From: a virus
Strand: one strand, 5' to 3'
Virus record (IMG/VR): IMGVR_UViG_3300022690_000259
Location: 1 to 40,182 of that record
DNA length: 40,182 nucleotides
The notes under the pieces were generated by a model that ran no database searches, was not told the DNA's origin, and worked only from the letters and a program-made list of their open reading frames with translations. The number at the start of each line of letters is the position of its first letter. Position 1 is the first letter of the stretch. A program made the position numbers and the translations under genes. Positions 5,642 to 37,085 of the stretch are shown in pieces.

Positions 5642-5647
5642 TATATA

Positions 5648-5679: not shown

Positions 5680-5689
5680 ACTTTGAGAC

Positions 5690-23808: not shown

Positions 23809-24212
23809 TTAATGAAATCTGTAAAAGGGTAAGCGAAGGTGAGGCGTTAAGAAATATCTGCTCTGAAAAAGAACAGATTGATGTTGTTACATTCTATAAG
23901 TGGATAGATGACGACGAGGATAAAGCCAAACACTACGCGCGCGGTATAAGGGCTAGGACTGACATACATTTTGAGTCCATTCGGGAAATAATCCATGAAG
24001 ATTGTACCTACACCTACAAGGACGAGAATGGCAATGAGATAACTAGGATTGATTCAGCTAAAGTTCAACACCAGCGTTTAAAAATGGACGGTGAAAAATG
24101 GATGGTCGGAAAAGAGAACGCTCCTAAATACGGCGACGTTACGAAACATAAAATATCAGGCGACGAAGACGACGACACGCCGATTAAAATAATTGGCACC
24201 ATTATAAAATAA
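23775..24212 (+). CDS. terS: Terminase small subunit
   Basis: KQKTEIVNEICKRVSEGEALRNICSEKEQIDVVTFYKWIDDDEDKAKHYARGIRARTDIHFESIREI follows the common TerS pattern (I...I..G.SLR.IC......T...W......F...YA.AR..)). It lies just upstream of the large terminase. Confidence 0.7.
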   Translation: MAYTDKQKTEIVNEICKRVSEGEALRNICSEKEQIDVVTFYKWIDDDEDKAKHYARGIRARTDIHFESIREIIHEDCTYTYKDENGNEITRIDSAKVQHQRLKMDGEKWMVGKENAPKYGDVTKHKISGDEDDDTPIKIIGTIIK

Positions 24213-24226
24213 TTAAAGCAAAGGAA

Positions 24227-24385
24227 ATGGCAATAGCAATAGCAATAGGTTTCGCAATTACGATTGGCTTGATAGTTTTTGGGATTTTTGCGATTGACAC
24301 AGTGTGCAGTAATCAATCATTGATAATCAGGAATCAAGAGAAAATACTCAGGCAGTTAAAGGCAACGCCTAAAAAAAATGATTGA
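24227..24385 (+). CDS. Small membrane protein between terS and terL (52 aa, not in ORF track)
   Basis: Manual translation: MAIAIAIGFAITIGLIVFGIFAIDTVCSNQSLIIRNQEKILRQLKATPKKND. One transmembrane helix. The stop overlaps the terL start by 8 nt. Confidence 0.45.
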   Translation: MAIAIAIGFAITIGLIVFGIFAIDTVCSNQSLIIRNQEKILRQLKATPKKND

Positions 24386-25739
24386 AAACGGAATTATAAC
24401 ATTTGACACACGCGGGAACGAAAAGCAAAAGGAGTGCGCCAGACGTTGGAACGACGATTACACAAGTGATATAATTTACGGTGGAGCAAAGGGAGGAGCC
24501 AAAAGTTTTACTGGCTGCTCCCTTATTTTTTCAAATGCCTTCACCTACCCTGGCACCCATTATTTTATTTGCAGGAAGAAATTAAACGACCTGCGAAAAT
24601 TTACCCGCCCATCCATTGACGAGGTTTTTGATATTTGGGGCATACCCCAGGCTAATTACAAGTTTAACGCCATGGATAATATGTACATTCTGCACAATAA
24701 ATCTAAGGTGTTTCTATTAGAAGCTAAGTACATGCCCTCTGATAAGGACTATGCACGGTTTGGGTCAATGCAGATGACGAGGGGGTGGCTTGAGGAGGCT
24801 GGGGAGTTTGAGCCAGATGCAAAAAGCAATTTAGCGGCAAGCGTTGGGAGATGGAGGAATAATAAATACGGATTAAAAGGTAAGATACTTCAAACATGTA
24901 ACCCGGCTAAAAATTACCTATACGGGCAGTATTACAAACCATTTAAAGAAGGGACTCTAGGTAAAAATAAGGCATTTATACAGGCGTTTCCTCAAGATAA
25001 TAAAATGTTATCCAAGGGCTATATAGAGCATCTTTACGAGACATTGGATAAAAATCAGATTGAAAGGCTTATTCATGGCAGCTGGGAGTACGACGACGAC
25101 CCAACATGTTTAATCGACATCGATTCAGCTAATGATTACTTCACCAACGAACACATATTGCCGGAAGGTGACAAATACATTACCGTTGACGTGGCTCGAC
25201 TCGGAAAGGATAAAACTACAATTAGAGTCTGGCATGGTTGGCGAGTAATCCAGGTTGAGGAGTACGACAAAACAACTATCAACGAGGTTGTGGATATCGT
25301 AAAGACAATAGCCAATATCCATGAGGTGCCAATGAGTAGGGTTGTTGTTGACGAAGACGGCGTAGGCGGAGGCGTTAAAGATTACCTGAAATGCAAAGGA
25401 TTTGTTAATAATAGTTCACCCATTCAGAAAGGTGTGGATAAAAAATTCAAAGAAAATTACGATAATCTAAAAAGTCAATGTAGTTTCAAAATCGCCAAGC
25501 GGATTGTGCGAAAAGAATTATATGAAATTTGCGATAACAACAACAGAAAACAAACTGTGATTTCAGAAATGGAAGTAGTTAAAAGTAAGTCTGATATGCC
25601 TGTAGGTAAATTGGGTGTGCTTCCAAAAGATGAAGTTAGAAAATTAATTGGCCGTTCGCCTGATCACTGGGATAGCATAATGATGCGTGAATTTTTCGAA
25701 TTAAGAAGATCAAAAATGTTAGCAAGCTCATGGATTTAA
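24378..25739 (+). CDS. terL: Terminase large subunit
   Basis: 453 aa. It has a Walker-A-like GGAKGGAKSF, a WLEEAGE acidic (Walker B/catalytic Glu) segment, and nuclease-domain acidic motifs VDVARLGKDKT and VVDEDGVGGGVKD. Confidence 0.85.
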   Translation: MIENGIITFDTRGNEKQKECARRWNDDYTSDIIYGGAKGGAKSFTGCSLIFSNAFTYPGTHYFICRKKLNDLRKFTRPSIDEVFDIWGIPQANYKFNAMDNMYILHNKSKVFLLEAKYMPSDKDYARFGSMQMTRGWLEEAGEFEPDAKSNLAASVGRWRNNKYGLKGKILQTCNPAKNYLYGQYYKPFKEGTLGKNKAFIQAFPQDNKMLSKGYIEHLYETLDKNQIERLIHGSWEYDDDPTCLIDIDSANDYFTNEHILPEGDKYITVDVARLGKDKTTIRVWHGWRVIQVEEYDKTTINEVVDIVKTIANIHEVPMSRVVVDEDGVGGGVKDYLKCKGFVNNSSPIQKGVDKKFKENYDNLKSQCSFKIAKRIVRKELYEICDNNNRKQTVISEMEVVKSKSDMPVGKLGVLPKDEVRKLIGRSPDHWDSIMMREFFELRRSKMLASSWI

Positions 25740-26390: not shown

Positions 26391-26924
26391 ATGTCAAAAG
26401 GAAAAGGTAAAAATAAGGGTGCAAAAGCTAAGGTAGAAACCAAAGTTGAGCCAGTTGTAAGTCAGGAAATAAAAGCAGGAGCGAAGGAAACTCCTAAAAT
26501 TGAAACCGTAGTAGATCCTCCTGTAGTTGATAAACCGACTTTAGGTATTAATTCTACATATAATGTCGGGTTGGCAATTAAAGGTAAAGACAATGAGTTA
26601 GAGTATATTACTTTTGAAATTGGAACGAACGAAAAAGGCGAATTAGAATTTACGAAAGAGTTTACTGAAAAGTTTATAAAGACGTTTGGCCCTCAAAAAC
26701 CAGAAGTTGACCCACTCATTACAAAGGCTGAAAAACTAGTAGGGAAAACACCACCTGAATTAACAATCGAAGCTGTGGACGAAGAAATGAGAGATGCAAT
26801 TGAAAACATTGGCAAGATTCAATCTAAATACCAGCAATTAACAGCGATATCAAAATCAAGTAAATTAAGGCGTATGATTCGCATTTTGAGAACTGCCAGT
26901 AAAGATTGGAAGCCGCGTGTATAA
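26391..26924 (+). CDS. Hypothetical structural-module protein with Lys-rich disordered N-terminus
   Basis: 177-aa ORF. Its stop overlaps the GTG start of the next gene. Confidence 0.5.
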   Translation: MSKGKGKNKGAKAKVETKVEPVVSQEIKAGAKETPKIETVVDPPVVDKPTLGINSTYNVGLAIKGKDNELEYITFEIGTNEKGELEFTKEFTEKFIKTFGPQKPEVDPLITKAEKLVGKTPPELTIEAVDEEMRDAIENIGKIQSKYQQLTAISKSSKLRRMIRILRTASKDWKPRV

Positions 26925-27666
26925 CTACAAAATTTCAAGCTTAGGAATAGATTTTCAGCTACCAATTAATTGGAGTGAAATTACTATCCAAAAATTCGCA
27001 GATTATCAAGATCTAGTGAAGCAGCTGCAAAAACAGTTTGTTGAAACATTCAGTTTAAAGGATGAAACAGAAATTGCACAGGTTACGACAATCGAAATAT
27101 TTATCAAGATGCCGAGTTACTTCACCAAAATAATATCGTTTTGGTCTGGGTTGAGCTTAAGCGATGTGTACAAAATAGATAAGAACGATGTACTTGCCTG
27201 TTACACTCATATGAATAAATTTCTAGCCAACAATACAACCGAAACCGGCATTGATAAATTTACATTCAAAGGAGCGGAGTATTTATTCCCTGGATCTAAA
27301 AGCGATATCAACGGCAATACAGCATTAATGGCCGATGAAACATTCGGAGCGATGATTTACGCCTTCCAGCAAAATAAGAGTTTGGAGGAGTTAGGCAAAG
27401 GAAGGTTTGAAGCTGTGGCCGCGCAAATGGCAATTTTATGCAGGCCAAAAGGCGAGGAGTACGACCCTGATAAATCCAATGTGAGAGCTTTGGAATTCAA
27501 GCAGCTGCCCATGGATATCGTATGGGAGTTTGTTTTTTTTTCGATAAGACAGACGAGCAGATTCAAAAAGCTTACAGAAACCTATTTGAAGGAAGGGGAG
27601 GAAAAAACAAACTTAGCCGGTGGGGGTGGTATAACTCCCTCTACCAAGCTGCAGGAAAAGACATAA
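26917..27666 (+). CDS. Tail-assembly-chaperone-like protein, zero-frame product (gpG analogue; GTG start)
   Basis: 249 aa. It contains the T9 run at 27533-27541, and its 3' 145 nt overlap an open -1 frame. The arrangement matches the gpG/gpGT paradigm. Confidence 0.5.
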   Translation: MYNYKISSLGIDFQLPINWSEITIQKFADYQDLVKQLQKQFVETFSLKDETEIAQVTTIEIFIKMPSYFTKIISFWSGLSLSDVYKIDKNDVLACYTHMNKFLANNTTETGIDKFTFKGAEYLFPGSKSDINGNTALMADETFGAMIYAFQQNKSLEELGKGRFEAVAAQMAILCRPKGEEYDPDKSNVRALEFKQLPMDIVWEFVFFSIRQTSRFKKLTETYLKEGEEKTNLAGGGGITPSTKLQEKT

Positions 27667-27779
27667 TGAAATTAGACAAAGTTGAGGCAATGCCTTTTCA
27701 TAAAGTCATGGCGTTTTTGAGTTACGAAAAGGATTTTTATTATAAGCCACCAGTTGTTAAAAAAAGGAAAAGGAAATGA
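27522..27779 (+). CDS. -1 frame extension ORF (gpT-like part; probably expressed by frameshift at 27534-27540, not from its own ATG)
   Basis: It is open in the -1 frame relative to 26917..27666 and has protein-like sequence (WGWYNSLYQAAGKDIMKLDKVEAMPFHKVMAFLSY). Its stop overlaps the next start as ATGA. Confidence 0.5.
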   Translation: MGVCFFFDKTDEQIQKAYRNLFEGRGGKNKLSRWGWYNSLYQAAGKDIMKLDKVEAMPFHKVMAFLSYEKDFYYKPPVVKKRKRK

Positions 27780-28033
27780 GAATATTAGAATTTGAAGGTT
27801 ACGTAATTGACGCAAATAAATTAGAATGCGTCTCCTCGATACATGAAGATATTGGCTTGTATTCAAAGTATAAGGTATCGTTTCAGGTAGGCGGTATTAA
27901 ATACATTAAAAGCATTGAGTACAGGGATGATTCTAAAGATTATCCAGAGAGAGACGAGGCGTATAAAAAGATTGTTAAAATAAGGGAATCTATCGTTGCG
28001 GAAATGAAAAAAAGAATAGATGAATTTGCCTAA
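27776..28033 (+). CDS. Hypothetical protein
   Basis: 85 aa with an ATGA-coupled start. Confidence 0.5.
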   Translation: MRILEFEGYVIDANKLECVSSIHEDIGLYSKYKVSFQVGGIKYIKSIEYRDDSKDYPERDEAYKKIVKIRESIVAEMKKRIDEFA

Positions 28034-28754
28034 AATACTAATAGCTGCACCAACCAGCGATAAAAAAGATTATTGCCTTGACGAATGGGTAGATAACGTA
28101 CTTTCGTTTGATTACCCTGCGAGTACAATACTATTAGTGGACAATTCCCACAACGAAGAATACTATCATAAAATTTTAGACAAAGGAATTAACTGTCTGC
28201 ACGTTAAACCGGAAGGAAACGTGGTTGATTATATTGCGGATTGTCAGAAATTGATTAGACATTATGTTTTAGAGGGCGGCTATGATTACCTCTTCTCTCT
28301 GGAGAGCGATGTAATACCACAATCCGATATTATACTACAGTTATTACATCATAATAAAAGAATTGTAGCCGCCCCTTATTTCGTGCAATACAAAGGCGGT
28401 GACCCGTCATTGTGCATGATTGATCCAGAAATACAACACGTAAAAGAAATGAGCTACATGCATACCCGAATGGTGGGCACAAAGCAAGGATTAAGCAGAT
28501 TAACCGGTGAGTTAGTAAAAGTTTTTGGCGTCGGCCTCGGCTGTTCGTTAATACATAAAGATGTTTTGAAAAAAATAGACTTCCGCTCGGGCACCGCGTC
28601 CAACGAGACCCGAATGGATCGGAGTGTATTTTCGGACAGCCTATTTTATATTGATTGCTTCAAGGCAAAGATACCCGTTTTTTGGGATACAAAATTACTT
28701 GTACGGCATAAATATAGTGATTGGAGCGGCAATATTGATTTATATATTAAATAA
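28020..28754 (+). CDS. GT-A fold glycosyltransferase (GT2-like)
   Basis: ILIAAPT (beta1), ILLVDNSHN (DxS-type nucleotide-sugar site), FSLESDV (acidic DXD-equivalent) and GLGCSLIHKDVL, in the order typical of family-2-like glycosyltransferases. Confidence 0.55.
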   Translation: MNLPKILIAAPTSDKKDYCLDEWVDNVLSFDYPASTILLVDNSHNEEYYHKILDKGINCLHVKPEGNVVDYIADCQKLIRHYVLEGGYDYLFSLESDVIPQSDIILQLLHHNKRIVAAPYFVQYKGGDPSLCMIDPEIQHVKEMSYMHTRMVGTKQGLSRLTGELVKVFGVGLGCSLIHKDVLKKIDFRSGTASNETRMDRSVFSDSLFYIDCFKAKIPVFWDTKLLVRHKYSDWSGNIDLYIK

Positions 28755-28827
28755 TAATACAATGAATTCGCTAAAACCTATAGTATAACAATCGAATGTA
28801 TTAAATGAATGTACATACACTTAAAAA

Positions 28828-29277
28828 TTGATTATGAAAAATAATACTTACCAAGAACGACTCAATCAATATAAAGAGGAAATATCCATCATAAACCGAG
28901 GTATCAAAGCTTACATAGGCCGTGGTGAAAAAGTTGTAACAGGAGCAGTTGCCAAATATGAAAATGAGCACAAAGTTTTTAAGCTGCAATTAGACCTTTC
29001 CGCTAAAGAGGGTTCAATGTTGCAGCTCGCTCAATTGATGAAGGAAAAAGACGAGCAATTTGCGTCAGAAATGAAATTCATGAAGGCCAATTTCGCCAAG
29101 CTTCTCAAAAAAGCAATGGACGCAAAGGACGGATTACCAAAAGATCAAAAAAGAATGGTGGTAGCATATCGGGAAATGGATGTCAAGAAATCTTGGCTTT
29201 CAGACGAACATAAATTAGTGGCATTCAAAGCAATGATGAACATTTTAAATGCTAATAGTAATGGGAAATCAATTTAA
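28828..29277 (+). CDS. Hypothetical helical protein (glycan island)
   Basis: 149-aa Lys/Glu-rich ORF. No family recognised. Confidence 0.5.
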   Translation: MIMKNNTYQERLNQYKEEISIINRGIKAYIGRGEKVVTGAVAKYENEHKVFKLQLDLSAKEGSMLQLAQLMKEKDEQFASEMKFMKANFAKLLKKAMDAKDGLPKDQKRMVVAYREMDVKKSWLSDEHKLVAFKAMMNILNANSNGKSI

Positions 29278-29821
29278 GTTACTCAAGGATTATGAAAATC
29301 CAAGCCGTAAAATCCATAAAGGCGTTATAAAAACTAGATCCGAATGGTGTGAGATATTCGAACATCTAAATTTAAAACCTAGTGAATTATTTGGGAAAAA
29401 TGATTGGTTTGAGAAGGTAGAGGAAAGGATAGAAGTTAAAATAATGTATTGCTACCGTAAGAAACACAACTCTATGCCTGTTGGTAAATTAATAGGAATG
29501 TTTTTAGAGGGCGTTCATCCAACAGAAGAACAACGAATACTATGCGAGAAAGCCATAAACGGGAAGCTGGTAGATAGGAATGATTTACTTCATGTATTAA
29601 TGGGAATGTATTCAGAATATAAAAACCCAACCGACCGCAAAGCTAAAGAGGTGGTTAGATGTATTGTAGGCACTCTAGGCGTAACTACCGAGGAATGGTT
29701 TAAGCTAAAGAAAACAACAGAAGTACCCATTTCAGACTGTGGTAGTGAAACGGTAAGTTTTGTAAGTAAAGAGCAGCGCGACCATGCAATCAATGTATTA
29801 TCAAGCAACACAGCTAAATGA
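29249..29821 (+). CDS. Hypothetical protein (glycan island)
   Basis: 190-aa ORF. No family recognised. Confidence 0.5.
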   Translation: MLIVMGNQFKLLKDYENPSRKIHKGVIKTRSEWCEIFEHLNLKPSELFGKNDWFEKVEERIEVKIMYCYRKKHNSMPVGKLIGMFLEGVHPTEEQRILCEKAINGKLVDRNDLLHVLMGMYSEYKNPTDRKAKEVVRCIVGTLGVTTEEWFKLKKTTEVPISDCGSETVSFVSKEQRDHAINVLSSNTAK

Positions 29822-30552
29822 ACCTAACAATAGTAACAGCGGTCTGGAAGCGGCCAGAAGTATTTGAGATGTTTGCCCAAGGCGTTAAGCTACTGCAAAA
29901 ACATTTTAAAGGAAGGATTAATATCACCGTCGCATGTACCGGATCTGAGGGTCAACAATCAAGATCAATGGTTGAGGCTCATAAATTCCTATATGCTGAA
30001 TACCACAACAGGGCGTTAGGCCAAAAAATGAACAAAGCCGCAATTATATCTAGGACATTAGAACCTGATTACGTGATGTTAGTTGGCAGCGATGACATAA
30101 TGGCCCCGAATGTAATGGAGGTTTACTACGAGGAAATGCTAAAAGGCATTGATTACCTCTACGTTAAAGACTTTTATTTCTTCGATACTGTCACAAAACA
30201 GGGATTATATTGGGCGGGATACGCTAAAACCAGTAATCGCGGCCATGGATGCGGCGCCGGTCGTGTGTTATCTCGTCGAGTATTGGACGCCCTTGGATTT
30301 CAACCATGGTACAATGATAAATGTCACAACATTCTTGATACTGCATTTGACAGGAGAATGAGAAGCATTCAAGGAATAAAACCAATCGCCAAATCTTTCT
30401 ACCTCCGGGACATTGACGGTTTTGGATTGGATATTAAGAGTAGTACAAACATGACGCCATTTGCAAAGTGGGACAATACCGAATTTATGGACGGCAAGAA
30501 AATGTTATTTGACAATTTACCGGAGAAACTAGCAAAACAGATATATGGATGA
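29818..30552 (+). CDS. GT-A fold glycosyltransferase (putative)
   Basis: LTIVTAVWKRPEVF..., ALGQKMNKAA... and DYVMLVGSDDIM (DXD-type GSDD) follow the GT-A pattern. ATGA-coupled start. Confidence 0.5.
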   Translation: MNLTIVTAVWKRPEVFEMFAQGVKLLQKHFKGRINITVACTGSEGQQSRSMVEAHKFLYAEYHNRALGQKMNKAAIISRTLEPDYVMLVGSDDIMAPNVMEVYYEEMLKGIDYLYVKDFYFFDTVTKQGLYWAGYAKTSNRGHGCGAGRVLSRRVLDALGFQPWYNDKCHNILDTAFDRRMRSIQGIKPIAKSFYLRDIDGFGLDIKSSTNMTPFAKWDNTEFMDGKKMLFDNLPEKLAKQIYG

Positions 30553-30718
30553 TTTAAAAAAAATTAAAGCTATTGTTTTAGTCAGTAATCAGAAATTAGA
30601 ATACCAGTTCAGTTGTTATGATTTTGATATTCATAATTCTTGTCATAGATTTTATAATGAAGAAGGGGCGATCGTGTATATATTTCCTGCGCAACATACA
30701 ATCGTTAGTATATTATGA
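30545..30718 (+). CDS. Small hypothetical protein (57 aa, not in ORF track)
   Basis: Manual translation: MDDLKKIKAIVLVSNQKLEYQFSCYDFDIHNSCHRFYNEEGAIVYIFPAQHTIVSIL. Its start overlaps the upstream stop, and its stop overlaps the next start as ATGA. Confidence 0.45.
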   Translation: MDDLKKIKAIVLVSNQKLEYQFSCYDFDIHNSCHRFYNEEGAIVYIFPAQHTIVSIL

Positions 30719-31338
30719 AGATATTTATCACAGGGTGCGCCAAATCGGGCACAACGTTACTGGCTAGGTTAATGGATTCATTCGGCCATATAATAGCTAC
30801 TGAGGAAACAAGTTTGCACGGGCTATGTCAAAGTGAGCACAATAATATAGTTTGTAAACGCAGTGAGTACTCTATATTTTCCAATATATTGACTAGAAAG
30901 GATTTGAATAACCAAAAACAGTTGATTAAGAAAAAAGGAATCAAAGTAATTAACATTTATCGTAACGGTGTTGATATAATGGAAAGTTTCGAGAGGGATT
31001 GGGGTTACTGGAATCCGTTAATATGGTGTGAAAGTATTAGACAAATGCAAGAGTATAGGGCTTTGATTGCTGTGAATATCAGATATGAGGCGTTGGTAGA
31101 AAGTCCGGACGTAATACAGAGGTATATCGCTAGTCGACTAGGGTTAAAACCTAACTACTTATTCAGTGAATACACCGAGAAAACACCTGAAACGATATTC
31201 CCTACCGATCAGGAGCGCTATAAAATACGGCCAATATCTAGCGATAGAATAGGTAAGCAGTTTGATGTTCGTAAGCCTGGCATTGACATTGATTATTTTA
31301 ACCAACAAATGGAAAGTTTAGGGTATGAAAAAGTATAA
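30715..31338 (+). CDS. Sulfotransferase-like protein
   Basis: The N-terminal IFITGCAKSGTTLLARLM fits the PAPS 5'-phosphosulfate-binding loop (xKSGTT / RSGTTLL), not Walker A GxxxxGK[ST]. IYRNGVDIMESF fits the 3'-phosphate-binding R-x-x-x-D...S motif. Confidence 0.5.
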   Translation: MKIFITGCAKSGTTLLARLMDSFGHIIATEETSLHGLCQSEHNNIVCKRSEYSIFSNILTRKDLNNQKQLIKKKGIKVINIYRNGVDIMESFERDWGYWNPLIWCESIRQMQEYRALIAVNIRYEALVESPDVIQRYIASRLGLKPNYLFSEYTEKTPETIFPTDQERYKIRPISSDRIGKQFDVRKPGIDIDYFNQQMESLGYEKV

Positions 31339-31888
31339 TCCTGTAGAAGACAATCATAATTTTATACAGTCAAGCGCAACAATTAGCCCTATCGCTATAA
31401 TTGGAAAGAATAATTACTTTGGTCACGGGGTAATTATTTACGATAACGTAAGCATAGGTGATAACAATTACTTTGGCGCGTACTGTATAATAGGAGCCAA
31501 ACCAGAATCAAGGGAGTTCTTTAAGGAGTCAAAACAAAGGGTAATCATAGGTAGTAACAACCGGTTTTATAAGCAGGTAACTATTGACGGCTCAACTGAT
31601 AAAGAGACAATCATAGCTGATAACTGTGAGTTTCTAAAGAATAGCCATGTAGGACATGATGCAATCATATGGAACAACGTTAGTCTAAGGTGTAACGCGG
31701 TAGTTGGCGGTGGGTGTGTAATTAATAAAGGCGTAGTAATAGGATTGAACGCAAGCATACACCAGAGAGTAGAGATACCAAAAGACGTTAGCATAGGCAT
31801 GAATAGCTGTGTTACTAAGAAGCAGATTATAAACGAAGGTTTTATTTACGGCGGGGTACCCGTTAGGCAATTAAAGAAGATAAAATAA
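31325..31888 (+). CDS. LpxA-like left-handed beta-helix acyltransferase (short form, no C-terminal helical domain)
   Basis: Hexapeptide repeats run throughout (IIGKNNYFGHGVIIYDNVSIGDNNYFGAYCIIG...). NSHVGHDAIIWNNVSL aligns with E. coli LpxA NAHIAHDCTVGNRCIL, including the catalytic His context. 187 aa versus about 262 aa for LpxA. Confidence 0.7.
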   Translation: MKKYNPVEDNHNFIQSSATISPIAIIGKNNYFGHGVIIYDNVSIGDNNYFGAYCIIGAKPESREFFKESKQRVIIGSNNRFYKQVTIDGSTDKETIIADNCEFLKNSHVGHDAIIWNNVSLRCNAVVGGGCVINKGVVIGLNASIHQRVEIPKDVSIGMNSCVTKKQIINEGFIYGGVPVRQLKKIK

Positions 31889-32418
31889 TGTGTGGTATTC
31901 TGGCCGTAGTAGGAGACTTTAGGTACGACAAAATACCCGACGCTTTAATAGAGCGTGGCCGGGACGGTCAAGGGGTATATGAAGACGAACACGTGCAGTT
32001 AATACAGACCCGTTTACAGATTACCGGCAATGATGAAATGAAACTACCTGTACAAACTGATACATGGGTACTATTATTTAATGGAGAGATATACAACTAC
32101 AAACTACTTAACAAGTTGTACCTGTACATGTACGATTTCAAGTACGATTCTGATTTCGAAACGGTATTATATGGGTTTGAGAAGTACGGATATAGCTTTA
32201 TAAACATGTTAGATGGTCAATTTGCCATATTCTTGTACAATAAAAAGACTCAACAGCACCATTTCTTTAGGGATGAACTAGCAATAAGGACGGTTTACAA
32301 GATGGAATACCAAGACAGCACTATTTATTCAAGTAATCTACGCTCATTACCAGCGATTAAGTTTAACAAATTCCCTACAAGGGGTTATGGAAATGTTACA
32401 AACGCAATTGAATTATGA
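31888..32418 (+). CDS. AsnB-type class II glutamine amidotransferase domain (N-terminal half of a split asparagine-synthetase-like enzyme)
   Basis: MCGI N-terminal nucleophile, with RLQITG, FNGEIYNY, SDFETVL, LDGQFAIFLYN and FFRDELAIRTVY all colinear with the AsnB GATase domain. TAATG-coupled start. Confidence 0.8.
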   Translation: MCGILAVVGDFRYDKIPDALIERGRDGQGVYEDEHVQLIQTRLQITGNDEMKLPVQTDTWVLLFNGEIYNYKLLNKLYLYMYDFKYDSDFETVLYGFEKYGYSFINMLDGQFAIFLYNKKTQQHHFFRDELAIRTVYKMEYQDSTIYSSNLRSLPAIKFNKFPTRGYGNVTNAIEL

Positions 32419-32557
32419 AGGTACGTATGGAAATGAAAAACCCCAGCTTTATAAACTGGCTTATAATTAAGTCTTGCAATTTTATGTTATGGTTTGCAGA
32501 GCTGGTATACGAGGGTAAAGAATTGGAAGAACAGCAAAAGGATTTAGTATCAACGGC

Positions 32558-33307
32558 ATGGAAAGCAATACGCTAAATTTTTATAACGACTTCAAGAAAG
32601 CAGTCAAGAAACGGACTGTTGATAATATGGCGGTGCCTGTATCGGGTGGTTTAGATTCTACTTTGATAGTTAAGGCGTTGTACGATAATGGTGATTTGGA
32701 AAGCTGTAAGAAACATCGTTTTTCATTCATAAATATGATGGACGGGCAAAGCCAGTATGTAAATAAATTATCAGAGACATACGGTATAAATATTCATAGA
32801 GTATTTCAAAGGCATTTAGATTGTCAGTTTGAAAACATGATTAGAATTTGGGAGGAACCATATTATGCATTGAGTATTAATTACTATCTATTTGATGTAA
32901 TTCGCGGAGCTGGTAAACGCGTCTGCATGTCAGGACTAGGAGCAGACGAACTATTCGGGGGTTACACATACTACAATACACCTGATTACCCACGCGGATT
33001 CATGGAGCCAATAGAAGCAGTAAGCAACGAGGCTAAGAAAAAACAAGATTTACACCTTCTCACCCATCATCATTTACGGAAAATGGATAAAATGGGAATG
33101 TATTTTGAGGTAGAAAGCCGCTACCCTTTTTTAGATACTGCAGTAAGAAAATATGAAGACGTTGGTAAATCGATGATCAAGGAAATACTGAGGGAAGATT
33201 TCGACGATGATTTTATCAATAGGCCAAAACAAGGGTTTAGGGCTGGCGTAAGCTCAAAGGAAATGTACTTGAAACAAATTAATTTATGGATTAAATTATT
33301 TGCGTAA
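32558..33307 (+). CDS. Asparagine-synthetase-type ATP-pyrophosphatase domain (C-terminal half of the split enzyme)
   Basis: PP-loop VPVSGGLDSTLIV, GLGADELFGGYTYY, LRKMDKMGMYFEVESRYPFLD and RPKQGF are colinear with the AsnB synthetase domain. It is in a different frame from the N-half. Confidence 0.8.
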   Translation: MESNTLNFYNDFKKAVKKRTVDNMAVPVSGGLDSTLIVKALYDNGDLESCKKHRFSFINMMDGQSQYVNKLSETYGINIHRVFQRHLDCQFENMIRIWEEPYYALSINYYLFDVIRGAGKRVCMSGLGADELFGGYTYYNTPDYPRGFMEPIEAVSNEAKKKQDLHLLTHHHLRKMDKMGMYFEVESRYPFLDTAVRKYEDVGKSMIKEILREDFDDDFINRPKQGFRAGVSSKEMYLKQINLWIKLFA

Positions 33308-33534
33308 TGGATGATTATCATAAAAAATTAGATGAATTAATATCTAAAGTTGATAACGGGAAACAGAAGTATAAAAAATCTCCGCTATTCAATAAGGTTG
33401 TTAATTGCTTGGCGTATAAACATGAGCCAATACAAATAATGAGTGATTTAATAGATATTATTGAGACTCAACAAGATGAATTTGAGAAATATCAACAAGG
33501 CGATACAAGGCCGATTTTAATTAAAACTATATGA
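33307..33534 (+). CDS. Hypothetical protein
   Basis: 75 aa with a TAATG-coupled start. Confidence 0.5.
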   Translation: MDDYHKKLDELISKVDNGKQKYKKSPLFNKVVNCLAYKHEPIQIMSDLIDIIETQQDEFEKYQQGDTRPILIKTI

Positions 33535-34310
33535 AATTAGGAATATTCTACACAATTTACAACGGTACTGAATTACTCAATGGAGCAATAAAACAAATTG
33601 AACCTTACGTTGACGTAATACTATTGCACTATCAAACAACCTCCCACCGAGGCCATAAATCAGATGAATTCGTAAGGTGGTACGAAGCCAATGAGAAAAA
33701 ATTGAGTAAAAAAATCAGGATACTCAAATATGAGCCTATCGAAGATTGGCAGGCCACGAAAAAAAATGAGCGAATCAAACATAATAAGGCTATCGATCTG
33801 CTACGAAGAGAGAATTGCACTCACTTTATAATGGGCGCGTGTGATCATTATTACAACCCACACGAATTCAAAGCAGCAAAGGAATATCTAATTGAAAATC
33901 CTTTCGATGTTACCTGGACTAAAATGTTCACATATTATAAAAACCCAACTTGGCAATTAACACCATTGGAGAATTATTGCATGCCGTTTATTAACAAATT
34001 AACGGATGAAACGCGGATTTGTAGCCGCTTTCCTGTACGAGTTGACCCATCCTGTGGAATTGCTCCGTATAAAACTTCTAAAGGTTTTGACCCAAAAGTC
34101 TTAATTTTACATCACTTCACCATGATTAGGCAGGATATTCGAAACAAGTTCGTTAATGCAGCCGCCGGCGTAAATTGGGCGAATAAAATAGAAGAATTTA
34201 TCAAAGAGTACGAAAATTACGATATTAAAGTAAATCCAGGTGTGAAGTATTTTAGTGGCGACGGCAACATAAGAAAAATTAAACAAGTGCCAAATTGGTT
34301 TAATATATGA
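33531..34310 (+). CDS. Putative GT-A-like glycosyltransferase (weak)
   Basis: The N-terminal beta strand LGIFYTIYNG..., a mid-protein acidic segment (GACDHYY) and the 259-aa size fit a GT-A-like layout. The call is tentative. ATGA-coupled at both ends. Confidence 0.3.
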   Translation: MKLGIFYTIYNGTELLNGAIKQIEPYVDVILLHYQTTSHRGHKSDEFVRWYEANEKKLSKKIRILKYEPIEDWQATKKNERIKHNKAIDLLRRENCTHFIMGACDHYYNPHEFKAAKEYLIENPFDVTWTKMFTYYKNPTWQLTPLENYCMPFINKLTDETRICSRFPVRVDPSCGIAPYKTSKGFDPKVLILHHFTMIRQDIRNKFVNAAAGVNWANKIEEFIKEYENYDIKVNPGVKYFSGDGNIRKIKQVPNWFNI

Positions 34311-34786
34311 GTCAGGTAGATGATATAAAAGCAGAATTTGAAACAATTGCCAACGCTCAAGTTGGAATCGAAACATTTAAATACGATTATCCTTCTGCTA
34401 AAAATGTATTTGCAGACGTGCCATACCCTGTTTTAATGTTACACACCATCACGGAAGCGGCGTTTACTCCTCAGAAAAAAGGCTATAAGAATTACAATAT
34501 AGTATTTGGCGTTTACTCTGAATATCTTGAAGCGGAAAAGGATAGTACTGAACGTTCAGTAAAGCAGGCTAAACTGGAAACATTAGGCGATCACTTTTTA
34601 ATAGAATTTGACGCCAGGGCACAAGATCAAACGGCCGGTAATTGGTTTAGATTAGTGGGTGCAGCTGAGGTATTACCCACAACAGAATGGATTGAAAACA
34701 TGGGTGATGCAAGAGTGTACGCCTATGAGATAAGTTTTATTTTACAAGTTCCTAGCGAATGCACGACGGGAACGTTTAATTATTAG
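34307..34786 (+). CDS. Neck / tail-completion-like protein (by position)
   Basis: 159 aa with an ATGA-coupled start, upstream of the gp10-like gene. No motif proof. Confidence 0.45.
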   Translation: MSQVDDIKAEFETIANAQVGIETFKYDYPSAKNVFADVPYPVLMLHTITEAAFTPQKKGYKNYNIVFGVYSEYLEAEKDSTERSVKQAKLETLGDHFLIEFDARAQDQTAGNWFRLVGAAEVLPTTEWIENMGDARVYAYEISFILQVPSECTTGTFNY

Positions 34787-34789
34787 ATT

Positions 34790-34969
34790 ATGCCAACGAG
34801 AAGCGATAAATTATATAACGAAGGAATATCGAATGTAAAGGATACTAATGAGCTGTATAAACTATTTGATTCAGCCCCTCCACCTCCGTTTATGCACTTT
34901 ATACCTACTAATACTTTAAAACCAAACAACTATATTACTGAGCCTGTAGAGGAATTAAAAGAAGAATAA
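34790..34969 (+). CDS. Small hypothetical protein (59 aa, not in ORF track)
   Basis: Manual translation: MPTRSDKLYNEGISNVKDTNELYKLFDSAPPPPFMHFIPTNTLKPNNYITEPVEELKEE. Its stop overlaps the next start (TAATG). Confidence 0.45.
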   Translation: MPTRSDKLYNEGISNVKDTNELYKLFDSAPPPPFMHFIPTNTLKPNNYITEPVEELKEE

Positions 34970-35499
34970 TGGCACTGGACGCAGCTAAAATAGTATACAA
35001 AAAATTAGCGGAGGAGCTTCTACTTTTGGAGGCTCAGGAAATAATTAACCAAGGACATAAAGCAACGGGCTCATTAATTAACACTTTAAAAAATCCAGTG
35101 GTCCCAATACTTGGCGGAATTTCAATAGAGGGTAAAATGAATCAATATGGTTTGGCGCTCGAAAAGAAGCGGCAACCAGGTAAGCCACCTCCAGTTTCAG
35201 TGCTAATAAAATGGATTAAAACGAAAGGAATAACCAACACTGACAGAACAACACGGCAAATAGCATTTGCTATTCAGGAAGCGATAAGAAGGGAGGGCGT
35301 ACCGACAACTGGCCGTAAAACTCCAAACGGCAAAGGCTCGTTTAGGTTTTCAAAAGTGGGCCGCCGAACGGGATGGATAACGCAAACACTAAAAGAAGCT
35401 GAGGGGCTGATTGAAAAAAGAACATTTGAGGCGGTAGGAGTAGAGGCGGAAGTAGCAATAAATAATATTGTAAGGGACTTTAAAAAGAATTTGAACTAA
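34969..35499 (+). CDS. HK97-gp10-like head-tail joining protein (putative)
   Basis: IINQGHKATGSLINTL resembles the gp10-family (d)TG.L..S motif. Size is 176 aa. Confidence 0.4.
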   Translation: MALDAAKIVYKKLAEELLLLEAQEIINQGHKATGSLINTLKNPVVPILGGISIEGKMNQYGLALEKKRQPGKPPPVSVLIKWIKTKGITNTDRTTRQIAFAIQEAIRREGVPTTGRKTPNGKGSFRFSKVGRRTGWITQTLKEAEGLIEKRTFEAVGVEAEVAINNIVRDFKKNLN

Positions 35500-37085
35500 T
35501 GGCAATAACGGAAGATTCAACACCAAGCAACCCTATATCATTAGGCCGACAAGTATCATATACTGTTAGTTCTAATGATATTGATATTGTTAGGATGAAG
35601 GGAAGTGTTGATATTGATTCAAGCGCGGTTATAATTTTAGATCCAGATATAGGAGAAACGAATGAATTCACCTTTGATTTTCAAACGATCGTCGAAAGGA
35701 ATTTAGGCGGATATATGACCGTTGAAGAGGGCGGTCATGGAATGCCAGTGCTTGACGCGTGGACTTTATTGGATGCCGACGAAGCATTTTTTGATATAAT
35801 ACCCACATTTATTGAGTTGGTTGGTACTGTGGGAGGTGGATTGGTTGAGGCAGATAATTTAGTAGGCTCAACGACAGCTGTAATTAATGCATTTTTAGCG
35901 CGTGAACAATCGCAAAATATGAATGAGTTTAATCTTAACGCTCCATTAAGGCGATTTTTAACCAATAATAGTCCTAATTCGGTGTTTCCAATTACCTCAA
36001 GAAATATAAGATTAACTGATAACGCTTGGTTAAGTGGGTATACCACGAATTCAGCCGCTACAATATTGCTTGAGGTAGCAGTTACCAATACCAGCAACGT
36101 AACAACCGTTTCATTTATTGACTTGGTTGATCTGCAAAATGCAGATCGTGGAGATATACCGGTTGGCCCTATAAATTTAAATGCCGCAACTTTAACCGGA
36201 GATTCGGAAGGCTCGCAGCCTATTATTAATTCAACCACCAAAAGTTATACTGTAACAGTAGTTGGTAGAGGAAATGAGCAAGTAACAAATGGCGACTTTT
36301 CAAGTTCTACGGGGTGGACTTTAGGCGGATCATGGGTCATTGCCGGAGGCGTTGCAACTAATGGCCCTACCTCCACATCGAGCGACATATTAAAACGGAC
36401 ATTATCATTAAGTACAAACACTGAATATTTTTTTTCAATAGATAAAGTTTCACATGGCGGTGATTTTTGGACATTGGATGTTGATTTTGACAACACCAAT
36501 ATAATAAGTTTCACTAGTGGCAACTCAAACAAAAAATATTTCAGGACACTGAACACGGCGGGCTCAATTTCTAACCAGGATATTGAATTAAATTTCAAAG
36601 ATGCCAGTGGGGCCACTATTACAATGGATAATGTTTCTATAACACAACGCTCTGTATTATCTGAAACAATAACTTTCGAGCTTTACGACAGATGCTTCAA
36701 TAAAGAGGTTGTCTTTTTTTGGGAGAATAGATTCGGCGGGTTGGATGGTCCTTTTGTATTTCAAACAGAAGAGAGAGGCATTACTGTCGATAAAAAAACA
36801 TATATCAAACCTCTAACTAATAATTTTACAACTCAAAGTAGAGGGCGTACAACAATAGGAGGCGAATCTAATACACCATTCAGTGCATTTTCCACAGCTT
36901 TAAAAGACAATGAATTAATATGGTTAGAGGAAATTTTTGAGGATAGGCTAACGTTTATTTTAGTCAATGGGGAATTTATACCAGTAACAGTAACTAGAAA
37001 TTCGGCTAAAACTGTTCAGGAAGGATTGAACCAATTAAGAATTGATTATACATACGCAAACAACAGGATAATTTTAGGGAAATAA
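35499..37085 (+). CDS. Tail/baseplate structural protein with a CBM-like beta-sandwich segment
   Basis: 528 aa. VTNGDFSSSTGWTLGGSW resembles the NG.FE.G...W opening of CBM4/9-type jelly-rolls. TAATG-coupled to both neighbours. Confidence 0.5.
   Translation: MAITEDSTPSNPISLGRQVSYTVSSNDIDIVRMKGSVDIDSSAVIILDPDIGETNEFTFDFQTIVERNLGGYMTVEEGGHGMPVLDAWTLLDADEAFFDIIPTFIELVGTVGGGLVEADNLVGSTTAVINAFLAREQSQNMNEFNLNAPLRRFLTNNSPNSVFPITSRNIRLTDNAWLSGYTTNSAATILLEVAVTNTSNVTTVSFIDLVDLQNADRGDIPVGPINLNAATLTGDSEGSQPIINSTTKSYTVTVVGRGNEQVTNGDFSSSTGWTLGGSWVIAGGVATNGPTSTSSDILKRTLSLSTNTEYFFSIDKVSHGGDFWTLDVDFDNTNIISFTSGNSNKKYFRTLNTAGSISNQDIELNFKDASGATITMDNVSITQRSVLSETITFELYDRCFNKEVVFFWENRFGGLDGPFVFQTEERGITVDKKTYIKPLTNNFTTQSRGRTTIGGESNTPFSAFSTALKDNELIWLEEIFEDRLTFILVNGEFIPVTVTRNSAKTVQEGLNQLRIDYTYANNRIILGK

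What the first reader, a model, noticed from the sequence alone, without database searches (positions are those of the whole stretch)
28020..34310. Glycan-tailoring island inside the late structural operon: glycosyltransferases, sulfotransferase, LpxA-like acyltransferase and AsnB-like amidotransferase
Seen: eleven or twelve consecutive + strand genes. They encode two GT-A-like glycosyltransferases (28020, 29818) and a weaker third (33531), a sulfotransferase-like protein (30715), an LpxA-like hexapeptide acyltransferase (31325), and an AsnB-like amidotransferase in two pieces (31888, 32558). There are also four or five ORFs with no family I recognise (28828, 29249, 30545, 33307). The island is translationally coupled to the flanking virion genes (ATGA at 27776 and 34307), and there is no terminator at its borders. 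I saw no nucleotide-sugar synthesis genes, flippase or polymerase. Established: mycobacteriophages carry glycosyltransferases next to structural genes that glycosylate capsid and tail proteins. Temperate phages carry O-antigen-modifying GT or acetyltransferase cassettes for serotype conversion, but those are usually lysogeny-expressed morons. AsnB-like enzymes amidate uronic or nonulosonic acids in surface-glycan clusters. Inference: a late-expressed system that builds or decorates an acylated, amidated and sulfated glycan using host sugar-nucleotide pools. The most plausible target is virion proteins (Ser/Thr-rich fibre-region proteins are candidates); alternatively the dying host envelope. 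To my knowledge the combination of sulfation, amidation and an LpxA-type acyltransferase in a phage structural operon is not a described system.
Basis: partly seen in the sequence, partly recalled or inferred. Interest (0 to 1): 0.8.

Follow-up and report, generated by a model that had tools for sequence, protein, structure and literature searches.

The report
Phage-only sugar-chain building gene cassette
A 40-kb uncultured phage carries, between its DNA-packaging and tail genes, a conserved set of soluble enzymes that should build and decorate a short sugar chain, and the same cassette recurs in dozens of other uncultured phages but in no cultured one, so its target (most likely the phage particle) is still unknown.

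Summary
Window 28020-34310 has 12 tightly packed + strand ORFs. Nine are conserved in relatives: three GT-A glycosyltransferases (28020, 29818, 33531), a PAPS sulfotransferase (30715), a truncated LpxA-like acyltransferase (31325), an AsnB-type amidotransferase split into two genes (31888, 32558), and two unknowns. Three small ORFs (30545, 32415, 33307) are not conserved.

The stretch 28.8-34.3 kb is an indel: relative L065 has the same flanks and only the first GT.

The island is not unique. GT_B, AsnB and the hexapeptide acyltransferase form a near-invariant core in 47 informative IMG/VR phage loci. A second GT usually follows, and a variable slot holds a sulfotransferase, a SAM methyltransferase or other enzymes. 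It sits among morphogenesis genes of unrelated phage lineages, often on the opposite strand, so it is an autonomous mobile module.

All products are soluble. The genome has no integrase-sized unknown ORF and no hydroxymethylase. GT_B is absent from 50,697 GenBank phages and had one hit in 185,579 species genomes.

Best reading: a phage-autonomous cytoplasmic system that makes an acylated, amidated, sulfated oligosaccharide, most plausibly on virion proteins. The target is unproven (about 0.4). It is a new variant of phage-encoded glycosylation.

The parts
28020..28754 (+). GT_A: GT-A fold glycosyltransferase, GT62/Anp1-like. Part of the conserved backbone next to f249, not of the inserted cassette.
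   Evidence: Weak Anp1 hit. Family profile vs PDB hits Mnn9 at E 3.4e-4 and STIV A197 at 0.028. Two homologues carry PF03452. D41-N42 and E95-x-D97 are invariant. Present in the cassette-less relative L065.
28828..29277 (+). u149: conserved basic helical protein of unknown function, first gene of the inserted block.
   Evidence: Homologues at the same position in L081, L083 and L087, 38-54% identity. No Pfam, PHROG or NCBIfam hit.
29249..29821 (+). u190: variable slot upstream of GT_B, function unknown.
   Evidence: Only L081 has a detectable homologue. In L091 and L098 the slot holds a TOD1/MUCI70 GT-like protein.
29818..30552 (+). GT_B: GT2-family glycosyltransferase, the anchor gene of the mobile cassette.
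   Evidence: 202 homologues. 11 of 27 aligned members hit PF00535. G90-S91-D92-D93 invariant. Fused to a hexapeptide domain in P0057. dN/dS about 0.1 vs L087.
30545..30718 (+). u57: small ORF, not conserved; doubtful gene.
   Evidence: No homologue in relatives. There GT_B instead has a C-terminal CxxC extension.
30715..31338 (+). SULT: PAPS-dependent sulfotransferase in the variable tailoring slot.
   Evidence: Pfam Sulfotransfer_3 at 37 bits, cut-off 27. 37 of 40 family members hit it. AF2 pLDDT 96.8. All top 50 Foldseek PDB matches are sulfotransferases or sulfotransferase-fold PAP-binding enzymes, with TM 0.68-0.72 to CurM, OLS and TPST2. 5'-PSB KSGTT, 3'-PB RxGxD and YExLV are kept.
31325..31888 (+). 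HEX: left-handed beta-helix acyltransferase, LpxA-like but lacking the LpxA C-terminal helical domain.
   Evidence: Hexapep E 1e-16. LpxA NCBIfam 93 bits, cut-off 226. Best PDB match 8e62 (189 aa) at E 3e-26. SHVGHD aligns with the conserved HD in the LpxA chains shown (H of 'HIAHD', 3r0s).
31888..32418 (+). GAT: class-II (Ntn) glutamine amidotransferase half of a split AsnB-type enzyme.
   Evidence: GATase_7 E 6e-20. Starts MCGI, with RGRD and NGEIYN. Separate ORF in L081, L083, L087, L091 and L098.
32415..32576 (+). u53: ORF in the spacer between the two AsnB halves; probably not a gene.
   Evidence: No similarity to the linker of fused AsnB proteins. The spacer varies from -23 to +357 nt in relatives.
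32558..33307 (+). ASNS: PP-loop ATP-pyrophosphatase (synthetase) half of the split AsnB-type enzyme.
   Evidence: Asn_synthase E 3e-25. SGGLDS present. Aligns to residues ~226-487 of the fused 462-489 aa AsnB of other cassettes. dN/dS about 0.11.
33307..33534 (+). u75: small ORF; the slot is kept but the sequence is not conserved.
   Evidence: L081 and L083 have unrelated 71- and 64-aa ORFs at the same place.
33531..34310 (+). GT_C: GT-A fold glycosyltransferase of a small, so far phage-associated family; last gene of the cassette.
   Evidence: 34 homologues in 5.8 billion proteins. AF2 pLDDT 93.4. Foldseek hits. xCDHxY (D105) and D172-P173 invariant.
24378..25739 (+). Context: large terminase subunit. 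TerS lies at 23775-24212.
   Evidence: PHROG 979 and 1482. 41% identity to the Cellulophaga phi10:1 TerL.
26917..27666 (+). Context: f249, conserved backbone gene always next to GT_A. A -1 frame ORF at 27522-27779 overlaps it.
   Evidence: Homologues in L065, L081, L083, L087, L091, L098 and L106. No family hit.
34307..39427 (+). Context: downstream backbone genes of 159, 59, 176, 528 and 780 aa, leading into the tape-measure-like gene at 39427 that wraps to 2244. Probable tail or virion genes.
   Evidence: Synteny in L065, L081, L083 and L087. The next gene carries PhageMin_Tail in relatives. No Pfam family for these proteins themselves.

Best explanation
The island is a phage-autonomous, cytoplasmic machine for building and tailoring an oligosaccharide.

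Shown:
- It has three GT-A glycosyltransferases, a PAPS sulfotransferase, a truncated LpxA-like acyltransferase that keeps the His motif aligned with LpxA chains, and a glutamine-dependent AsnB-type amidotransferase split into two subunits.
- All are soluble and under purifying selection.
- Fusions and strict co-occurrence link them across many phages.

Inferred:
- HEX and AsnB tailor one sugar. An O-acyl group is added and a uronic or ulosonic carboxylate becomes a carboxamide, either on the UDP-sugar or after transfer.
- GT_B, the invariant partner, transfers that sugar.
- GT_A and GT_C add neighbouring residues from host nucleotide-sugar pools.
- The sulfotransferase caps the glycan. Other phages use a methyltransferase in that slot.
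- The acceptor is most likely one or more of the phage's own virion proteins, made in the same cytoplasm from the same gene array. This would give particles a variable surface glycan.
For: Enzyme identities.

One pathway:
- Of 47 IMG/VR loci with at least 4 kb downstream of GT_B, 45 have AsnB and 43 have HEX next to GT_B. 27 have GT_C and 20 have an upstream GT.
- Fusions exist: GT_B-HEX (P0057), AsnB-HEX (L113, 664 aa), HEX-SULT (P0268), GT2-TPR-SULT-MTase (P0193, P0214) and GT4-SULT (P0326).
- The slot after GT_B swaps between SULT, SAM methyltransferase, radical SAM and an extra GT. This is the pattern of a diversifying surface glycan.

Cytoplasmic, and unlikely to be a lysogenic conversion cassette:
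- No hydrophobic segment in any island protein.
- Every ORF of 250 aa or more is accounted for except two that are too short for an integrase.
- GT_B gave one hit in 185,579 species genomes, a 43-kb contig of a MAG.

Link to morphogenesis:
- In this lineage the cassette is inserted beside a backbone GT, between terminase and tail-like genes.
- In GpA-terminase, sheath-type phages it lies between terminase and the sheath-like gene.
- In L114, L117 and L140 it lies just upstream of protease and capsid genes.

Selection: dN/dS is about 0.1 with saturated dS.
Against: - No acceptor is identified. No virion protein has an obvious glycosylation tract.
- The immediate flanks have no recognisable virion family.
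- In 15 of 19 loci of the GpA group the cassette is on the opposite strand to its structural neighbours. Expression timing may therefore be independent.
- All these enzyme families are typical of O-antigen and capsule clusters, which act on lipid-linked intermediates.
- No cultured phage carries the cassette, so no experiment bears on it.
- The GTs are not sequence homologues of the mycobacteriophage virion GTs; no mycobacteriophage was hit.
Confidence: 0.42

Rival explanations
1. Host-envelope remodelling during infection. The soluble enzymes act at the inner face of the membrane on undecaprenyl-linked O-antigen, capsule or LPS-core intermediates, or on their UDP-sugar precursors. The infected cell then displays an altered glycan, which would block superinfection or stop progeny re-adsorbing to debris.
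For: - AsnB-like amidotransferases, beta-helix acyltransferases, GT2 enzymes and sulfotransferases or methyltransferases are the standard toolkit of surface-polysaccharide clusters. NCBIfam shows partial hits to LpxA, NeuD/PglB/VioB and the XrtA/PEP-CTERM amidotransferase.
- The cassette often has its own orientation, like a moron.
- The variable tailoring slot fits receptor-type diversification.
Against: - No flippase, polymerase, ligase, bactoprenol GT or membrane acyltransferase, and no hydrophobic segment.
- No integrase-sized ORF, and the family is essentially absent from 185,579 bacterial and archaeal genomes, so it is not a prophage conversion cassette.
- A short lytic cycle leaves little time to rebuild a surface glycan.
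- The position is consistently inside morphogenesis modules.
Confidence: 0.25
2. Production of a soluble modified nucleotide sugar or small glycoconjugate (acylated, amidated, sulfated). It would act as an inhibitor, a signal or an anti-defence molecule rather than being attached to a macromolecule.
For: - The invariant triad includes two enzymes whose closest characterised relatives act on UDP-sugars or free carboxylates: LpxA on UDP-GlcNAc and AsnB-type amidotransferases.
- The toolkit resembles Nod-factor tailoring: a GT2, a hexapeptide acetyltransferase and a sulfotransferase or methyltransferase. There is a weak NoeE hit and a NodS hit in fusion P0193.
Against: - Two or three glycosyltransferases per cassette imply a defined acceptor and an oligosaccharide product.
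- No export or lipid-anchor gene is present.
- The resemblance to Nod-factor tailoring is only an analogy.
Confidence: 0.1
3. DNA hypermodification. The GTs glycosylate a modified base in phage DNA and the other enzymes decorate the sugar, protecting the DNA from restriction.
For: Phage GT clusters that glycosylate 5hmC or 5hoC in DNA are well known (PMC13326640).
Against: - Among the ORFs scanned with Pfam/PHROGs, which include every ORF of 250 aa or more, there is no thymidylate-synthase-like hydroxylase or hydroxymethylase, no DNA polymerase and no nucleotide-metabolism gene. The replication-region genes found are a RecE-like exonuclease, NinG and a DNA methyltransferase.
- To my knowledge, sulfotransferase, LpxA-like and AsnB-like enzymes are not part of any known DNA modification pathway.
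Confidence: 0.04

Closest known systems
Mycobacteriophage virion glycosylation (Freeman et al. 2023, Cell Host Microbe 31:1216; cited in PMC12582341 and PMC12801897; details from my own knowledge)
   Same: Phage-encoded soluble GT-A type glycosyltransferases lie beside structural genes, act in the cytoplasm with host sugar nucleotides, and decorate capsid and tail proteins. The glycan varies between phages.
   Different: - Sequence families differ. tblastn with GT_B and GT_C hit no mycobacteriophage.
- This cassette adds an amidotransferase, an LpxA-like acyltransferase and a sulfotransferase or methyltransferase.
- Hosts are probably Bacteroidota-type, not Actinobacteria.
- Virion glycosylation is not demonstrated here.
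Giant-virus capsid and fibril glycosylation machinery (chlorovirus PBCV-1 A064R and partners; Mimivirus fibril clusters with a hexapeptide N-acetyltransferase; own knowledge)
   Same: Virus-encoded, host-independent, cytosolic GTs plus tailoring enzymes (methyltransferase, beta-helix acyltransferase) build an atypical glycan on virion proteins. The GT_C model matches many giant-virus GT2 proteins in BFVD.
   Different: - Those are eukaryotic viruses that also encode nucleotide-sugar synthesis.
- No AsnB or sulfotransferase is described there.
- There is no gene-order similarity.
Serotype-converting cassettes of temperate phages (gtrABC, Oac, phage D3 iap/wzy)
   Same: Phage genes that alter a glycan with a GT2 enzyme and an acyltransferase.
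   Different: - Those rely on integral membrane proteins (GtrA flippase, GtrC, Oac) and are expressed from prophages.
- Here there are no membrane proteins, no integrase-sized ORF, and the family is almost absent from bacterial genomes.
O-antigen and capsule clusters with AsnB-like uronamide-forming amidotransferases (P. aeruginosa WbpS, Francisella WbtH; own knowledge) and LpxA/PglD-type beta-helix acyltransferases
   Same: Same enzyme superfamilies and the same chemical logic (amidated uronic acids, O- or N-acylated sugars).
   Different: - NCBIfam scores are far below every equivalog cut-off.
- AsnB is split in two here.
- HEX lacks the LpxA C-terminal domain.
- No dehydrogenase, aminotransferase, flippase or polymerase is present.
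Nod-factor tailoring enzymes (NodC GT2, NodL hexapeptide O-acetyltransferase, NodH/NoeE sulfotransferase, NodS methyltransferase)
   Same: The same combination of a GT2, a hexapeptide acyltransferase and an alternative sulfo- or methyl-cap on a short oligosaccharide.
   Different: Only an analogy. The hits are weak (NoeE E 0.001 at 18 bits vs cut-off 500). There is no NodA/NodB, and no AsnB in Nod clusters.

Membership tests
Glycosyltransferase family 2 (Pfam PF00535), for GT_B 29818 | Significant match to the PF00535 profile | tested here: inconclusive
   The window protein has no hit at E 0.1. However, 11 of 27 aligned homologues at 42-50% identity do hit, best 9e-8.
Glycosyltransferase family 2 (Pfam PF00535), for GT_B 29818 | DxD-type metal and nucleotide-sugar motif after the fourth strand | tested here: met
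   G90-S91-D92-D93 is invariant in 27 sequences. It aligns in register with the ExD of the GT_A family in hhalign.
GT-A fold glycosyltransferase, for GT_C 33531 | Rossmann-like GT-A fold with an acidic motif | tested here: met
   AF2 pLDDT 93.4. Foldseek hits SunS, SpsA and TarS at E 1e-7 and viral Fringe-like and GT17-like proteins at TM 0.70-0.82. D105 in CDH is invariant.
GT62 / Anp1-Mnn9, for GT_A 28020 | Match to Anp1/Mnn9 above the curated threshold | tested here: not met
   17.5 bits against a cut-off of 28.8. Only the family profile reaches Mnn9, at E 3.4e-4. It is GT-A-like, not a GT62 member.
PAPS-dependent sulfotransferase (Sulfotransfer_3) | Pfam gathering threshold, 5'-PSB loop, 3'-PB motif and the sulfotransferase fold | tested here: met
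   37 bits against cut-off 27. KSGTT and RxGxD are conserved. Profile hits TPST1/2 and CurM ST. The Foldseek top 50 are all sulfotransferases or sulfotransferase-fold PAP-binding enzymes.
Protein-tyrosine sulfotransferase (TPST/RaxST type) | Specific similarity beyond the PAPS-binding motifs, and a peptide acceptor | tested here: inconclusive
   TPSTs are the best profile hits (E 3e-6), and a Glu 20-21 residues after the PSB Lys is kept (sequence reading). CurM/OLS sulfotransferases fit equally well by structure. Family fusions are with GT2, GT4 and hexapeptide domains, which points to a glycan acceptor.
LpxA (acyl-ACP:UDP-GlcNAc O-acyltransferase) | Equivalog score | tested here: not met
   93 bits against cut-off 226 (NF003657) and 83 against 231 (TIGR01852).
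LpxA (acyl-ACP:UDP-GlcNAc O-acyltransferase) | Beta-helix with the catalytic His (E. coli H125, in the AHIAHD motif) | tested here: met
   SHVGHD aligns with the H-[IV]-[AG]-HD motif of the LpxA chains 3r0s and 4eqy and with 8e62. That this His corresponds to the E. coli catalytic H125 is from my own knowledge.
LpxA (acyl-ACP:UDP-GlcNAc O-acyltransferase) | C-terminal alpha-helical domain (about 70 residues) | tested here: not met
   The protein is 187 aa. It matches LpxA positions 24-177 of 264 only.
Asparagine synthetase B type amidotransferase | N-terminal Cys nucleophile, NGEIYN, and the PP-loop SGGxDS | tested here: met
   MCGI, RGRD, NGEIYN and SGGLDS are all present.
Asparagine synthetase B type amidotransferase | Single polypeptide; equivalog score for AsnB | tested here: not met
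   Two ORFs in different frames separated by 139 nt. Scores are 106 and 87 bits against cut-off 267. The enzyme is fused (435-502 aa) in other cassettes.
Phage serotype-conversion cassette (gtrABC / Oac) | Integral membrane flippase, GT or acyltransferase, and a prophage context | tested here: not met
   The highest 19-residue Kyte-Doolittle mean is 1.46. There is no integrase-sized unknown ORF. Only 1 hit was found in 185,579 genomes.
Virion glycosylation system (mycobacteriophage type) | GT genes within or next to the structural module | tested here: met
   The cassette lies between the terminase and tail-like genes here, and between terminase and sheath-like or protease-capsid genes elsewhere.
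Virion glycosylation system (mycobacteriophage type) | Glycans covalently bound to capsid or tail proteins | not testable with these tools
   Needs glycoprotein staining and MS of purified particles. No cultured carrier is known.

The most novel reading that the evidence does not exclude
Several unrelated lineages of virulent, uncultured phages coat their particles with a phage-made oligosaccharide. It would carry an acylated, amidated sugar and a swappable sulfate or methyl cap, all built by one horizontally mobile cassette. This would be the first sulfated glycan on a phage virion, a second and far more elaborate virion-glycosylation system after the mycobacteriophage one, and it would include a naturally split class-II (Ntn) glutamine amidotransferase.
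Probability: 0.3. Interest if true: 0.8.

Novelty: new variant of a known kind. Interest (0 to 1): 0.6.

Why it matters
Phage-encoded glycosylation is known mainly from DNA glucosylation, prophage serotype conversion and, recently, mycobacteriophage virions.

- A conserved, mobile, phage-associated cassette with amidation, acylation and sulfation or methylation would show that environmental phages run much richer glycan chemistry than assumed.
- If the target is the virion, this bears on particle stability, adhesion, immune or grazer recognition, and host range.
- It would also give a function to the unexplained sulfotransferase and asparagine-synthase genes that keep being annotated in viromes.
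- The swappable tailoring slot and the split AsnB are natural experiments for enzyme engineering.

Tried and rejected
Searches that gave nothing:
- Single-sequence phmmer of the three GTs and the sulfotransferase against PDB.
- PHROGs on the GTs and the sulfotransferase.
- Profiles A1 and A3 against PDB sequences.
- hhalign of A3 vs A1 was insignificant; A3 vs A2 was only suggestive.
- Megablast of the region against GenBank phages.
- The sigma-70 promoter and terminator scan was at chance level. The Bacteroidota promoter motif was absent from every intergenic gap. Transcription units could therefore not be defined.

Ideas tested and dropped:
- u53 (32415-32576) as the missing AsnB linker, which would imply frameshifts or a pseudogene. 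It shows no similarity, and spacer length varies among relatives.
- Clear Ser/Thr-rich acceptor tracts in virion proteins. None was found.
- DNA hypermodification. No hydroxymethylase or ThyA homologue was found.
- Lysogenic conversion. See the membership test.
- The small ORF before GT_C as a glycocin-like system, prompted by the SunS fold match. The ORF is not conserved, and the match reflects the generic GT2 fold.

Literature:
- The search for PDB entry 8E62 returned only unrelated papers.
- The Freeman 2023 paper is not held.

Full report
**What the window is**

The 40,182-base window is a complete, circularly assembled phage genome. Its first 144 bases repeat exactly at its end, so the unique length is 40,038 bp. 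All long ORFs are on the + strand.

- Recognisable genes are TerS and TerL (23775-25739), a tape-measure-like gene that starts at 39427 and wraps to 2244, a ClpP-type head protease, a capsid-like protein, a portal and a tail fibre.
- In the other half lie a RecE-like exonuclease, a DNA methyltransferase and NinG.
- TerL is 34-41% identical to those of Cellulophaga, Flavobacterium, Polaribacter and Bacteroides phages. No GenBank phage matches at the DNA level.
- Apart from 15995-16765 (256 aa) and f249 (249 aa), which have no family hit and are shorter than typical integrases, every ORF of 250 aa or more is accounted for. No integrase family was detected among the ORFs scanned with Pfam/PHROGs.
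- I found no thymidylate-synthase-like gene and no DNA polymerase.

**Checking the observation**

The 12 ORFs between 28020 and 34310 exist as described.

- Junctions overlap by 1 to 29 nt, or are back to back. The one exception is a 73-nt gap at 28755-28827. The ATGA overlaps at 27776 and 34307 are real.
- Terminator-like and promoter-like sites are at chance frequency, and none sits at the borders.
- GC content does not differ from the rest of the genome.

*Enzymes with direct family hits*

- Pfam gives Sulfotransfer_3 for 30715, Hexapep for 31325, GATase_6/7 for 31888 and Asn_synthase for 32558.
- The sulfotransferase hit covered only the N-terminal loop, so I built a 40-member family alignment. 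37 of 40 members hit Sulfotransfer_3.
- The family profile hits tyrosylprotein sulfotransferases and the CurM sulfotransferase, with the 5'-PSB, 3'-PB and YExLV segments aligned.
- An AlphaFold model (pLDDT 96.8) finds only sulfotransferases or sulfotransferase-fold PAP-binding enzymes among the top 50 PDB matches.

*The three glycosyltransferases*

None of them gets a significant Pfam hit itself.

- GT_C (33531): the model has pLDDT 93.4. It has a GT-A fold, matching SunS/ThuS, SpsA and TarS in PDB and phage 'Fringe-like' and GT17-like proteins at TM 0.70-0.82 in BFVD.
- GT_B (29818): it has 202 homologues. 11 of 27 aligned members hit PF00535, and GSDD is invariant.
- GT_A (28020): the family profile reaches Mnn9 at E 3e-4. 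Two homologues carry the Anp1 domain, and DN and ExD are invariant.

*The acyltransferase and the amidotransferase*

- The hexapeptide protein is LpxA-like in its beta-helix and keeps the SHVGHD His motif that aligns with LpxA chains. It lacks the C-terminal domain and scores far below the LpxA cut-offs. Its best structural relative by sequence is the equally short 8e62.
- The amidotransferase halves keep MCGI, RGxD, NGEIYN and SGGLDS.
- No island protein has a membrane-like hydrophobic segment.

**The island is an indel, and GT_A is not part of it**

The relative L065 has TerL, a 66-aa ORF, the f249 homologue and the GT_A homologue. These are followed directly by the homologues of the 159-, 176-, 528- and 780-aa downstream genes. 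The inserted block is therefore 28828-34310. GT_A belongs to a backbone in which it always sits next to f249: L065, L081, L083, L087, L091, L098 and L106.

Close relatives L081, L083 and L087 (60-80% protein identity) have the whole island in the same order. Against L087, dN is 0.16-0.56 with saturated dS, and dN/dS is about 0.1 wherever it can be computed.

The three small ORFs are not conserved.

- In place of the 30545 ORF (u57), relatives have a C-terminal CxxC extension on GT_B.
- 32415 is unrelated to the AsnB linker.
- The slot at 33307 holds unrelated small ORFs in relatives.

**The island is one copy of a widespread mobile cassette**

A scan of IMG/VR with the GT_B profile gave 60 loci.

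| Among the 47 loci with at least 4 kb downstream of GT_B | Loci |
|---|---|
| AsnB-type gene next to GT_B, same strand | 45 |
| Hexapeptide acyltransferase next to GT_B, same strand | 43 |
| GT_C | 27 |
| A further GT upstream | 20 |
| The sulfotransferase | 7 |
| A SAM methyltransferase detected in the same slot | 2 (others seen) |

- Other variants carry a radical-SAM enzyme or a TOD1/MUCI70-type GT.
- In phages with a lambda GpA-type terminase, a sheath-like gene and baseplate J, the cassette sits between the terminase and the sheath-like gene. These phages are unrelated to the window.
- There it is co-directional in 4 loci and on the opposite strand in 15.
- In L114, L117 and L140 it lies just before the protease and capsid genes.

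Domain fusions tie the enzymes together:

- GT_B-hexapeptide (P0057).
- AsnB-hexapeptide (L113).
- Hexapeptide-sulfotransferase (P0268).
- GT2-TPR-sulfotransferase-methyltransferase (P0193, P0214).
- GT4-sulfotransferase (P0326).

GT_B has no homologue in 50,697 GenBank phage records, and neither does the sulfotransferase. GT_C gives only weak Lak megaphage hits. GT_B gave a single hit in 185,579 species-representative genomes, on a 43-kb contig of a MAG.

**The split AsnB**

In all other cassettes AsnB is one protein of 435-502 aa. In the window lineage it is two ORFs.

- This holds for the window, L081, L083, L087, L091 and L098, down to about 50% identity.
- The spacer ranges from a 23-nt overlap to 357 nt, and the frame relations vary.
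- Both halves keep their catalytic motifs and are under purifying selection.
- This is an old gene fission, not a sequencing error or a fresh pseudogene.
- L109 may be a decayed copy.

**Mechanism**

Shown: the enzyme classes, their solubility, their linkage and their conservation.

Inferred: the near-invariant triad suggests that the acyltransferase and the amidotransferase tailor one sugar and that GT_B transfers it. The other GTs would extend the chain. The slot after GT_B would supply a cap, sulfate here. The donors would be host nucleotide sugars, glutamine and ATP, an acyl-CoA or acyl-ACP, and PAPS.

The acceptor is not identified. I favour virion proteins (about 0.4) for four reasons.

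- The enzymes are cytoplasmic and lack any lipid-carrier or export partner.
- The phages look virulent, and the families are essentially absent from cellular genomes.
- The cassette recurs inside morphogenesis modules of unrelated phages, here beside a backbone GT.
- The swappable tailoring slot is what one expects of an exposed, selected glycan.

Several points count against this reading.

- No obvious acceptor tract exists. The maximum is 29% S+T, in 11044-11667.
- The flanks are unannotatable.
- The cassette is frequently in opposite orientation.
- The enzyme families are those of O-antigen and capsule clusters.

Rivals: host-envelope remodelling (0.25), a soluble glycoconjugate (0.1), and DNA modification (0.04; no base-hydroxylating enzyme).

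**Comparison with known systems, and novelty**

Functionally the closest systems are mycobacteriophage virion glycosylation and giant-virus capsid or fibril glycosylation. Chemically the closest are O-antigen clusters with AsnB-like uronamide formation, and the Nod-factor tailoring set.

- The cassette is not a member of any of them. Equivalog thresholds for LpxA and AsnB are missed by a wide margin.
- The defining membrane components of serotype-conversion cassettes are absent.
- No mycobacteriophage was hit by tblastn with GT_B, GT_C, the sulfotransferase or the hexapeptide protein against GenBank phages.
- Phage sulfotransferase genes have been noted before, with 'function unclear' (PMC10580990). 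Large cyanophages with many GT genes have been described only by annotation (PMC12801897).

I rate it a new variant of a known kind (phage-encoded glycosylation) and a good experimental lead rather than a resolved system.

Noticed in passing
window 1-144 and 40039-40182: Exact 144-bp terminal direct overlap. The window is a circularly closed assembly of a 40,038-bp genome, and the tape-measure-like gene (start 39427) runs across the junction to 2244.
   Followed up: yes
window 26917-27666 and 27522-27779: The 249-aa backbone gene overlaps an 85-aa ORF in the -1 frame by 145 nt. Both reading frames are conserved in L081, L083, L087 and L106, and an A-run (GGAAAAAAC, 27600-27608) lies in the overlap. 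This may be a programmed -1 frameshift of the G/GT type, although the pair is not next to the tape-measure gene.
   Followed up: partly
whole window: Unusual gene order for a tailed phage. It runs TerS-TerL, small genes, glycan island, tail-like genes and tape measure, and only then head protease, capsid, portal and tail fibre. From 26391 round to 11667 the only intergenic gaps of 40 nt or more are four of 48-162 nt (2245-2406, 2940-2996, 5642-5689, 28755-28827).
   Followed up: partly
window 30715-31338 vs L087, L081, L083: The sulfotransferase is much more diverged between close relatives (42-63% identity) than its neighbours (61-79%). This suggests faster evolution or allele replacement in the tailoring slot.
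   Followed up: partly
window 11044-11667: A 207-aa protein just after the tail fibre has 29% Ser+Thr and no low-complexity repeats. It is the most S/T-rich protein of the genome, has no family hit, and is a candidate glycan acceptor or fibre-tip domain.
   Followed up: partly
L109 3303-4528: In this locus the amidotransferase half is interrupted after about 95 aa and the synthetase half lacks the SGGLDS loop. It may be a decaying copy of the split AsnB.
   Followed up: no
L093 9206-9994: The hexapeptide acyltransferase ORF continues into a C-terminal extension with a lipoprotein-like signal (LVMFSGC). This is either a fusion or an unrecognised adjacent small lipoprotein gene.
   Followed up: no
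L091 7882-8823; L091 5001-5657 and L098 5253-5879: Cassette variants carry a radical-SAM enzyme between the acyltransferase and the amidotransferase. They also carry a TOD1/MUCI70-type GT-like protein in the slot held by 29249-29821 in the window.
   Followed up: partly
all intergenic gaps of the window: The Bacteroidota promoter motif (TAnnTTTG, with or without an upstream TTTG) is absent from every intergenic gap of 40 nt or more, although TerL suggests a Bacteroidota-type host. Promoter type and host remain open.
   Followed up: partly
window 13156-13929, 17134-17757, 19047-19625: The replication and recombination region encodes a RecE-like exonuclease, a DNA methyltransferase (PHROG 757) and NinG. 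No polymerase was found, so the phage presumably relies on host replication.
   Followed up: no
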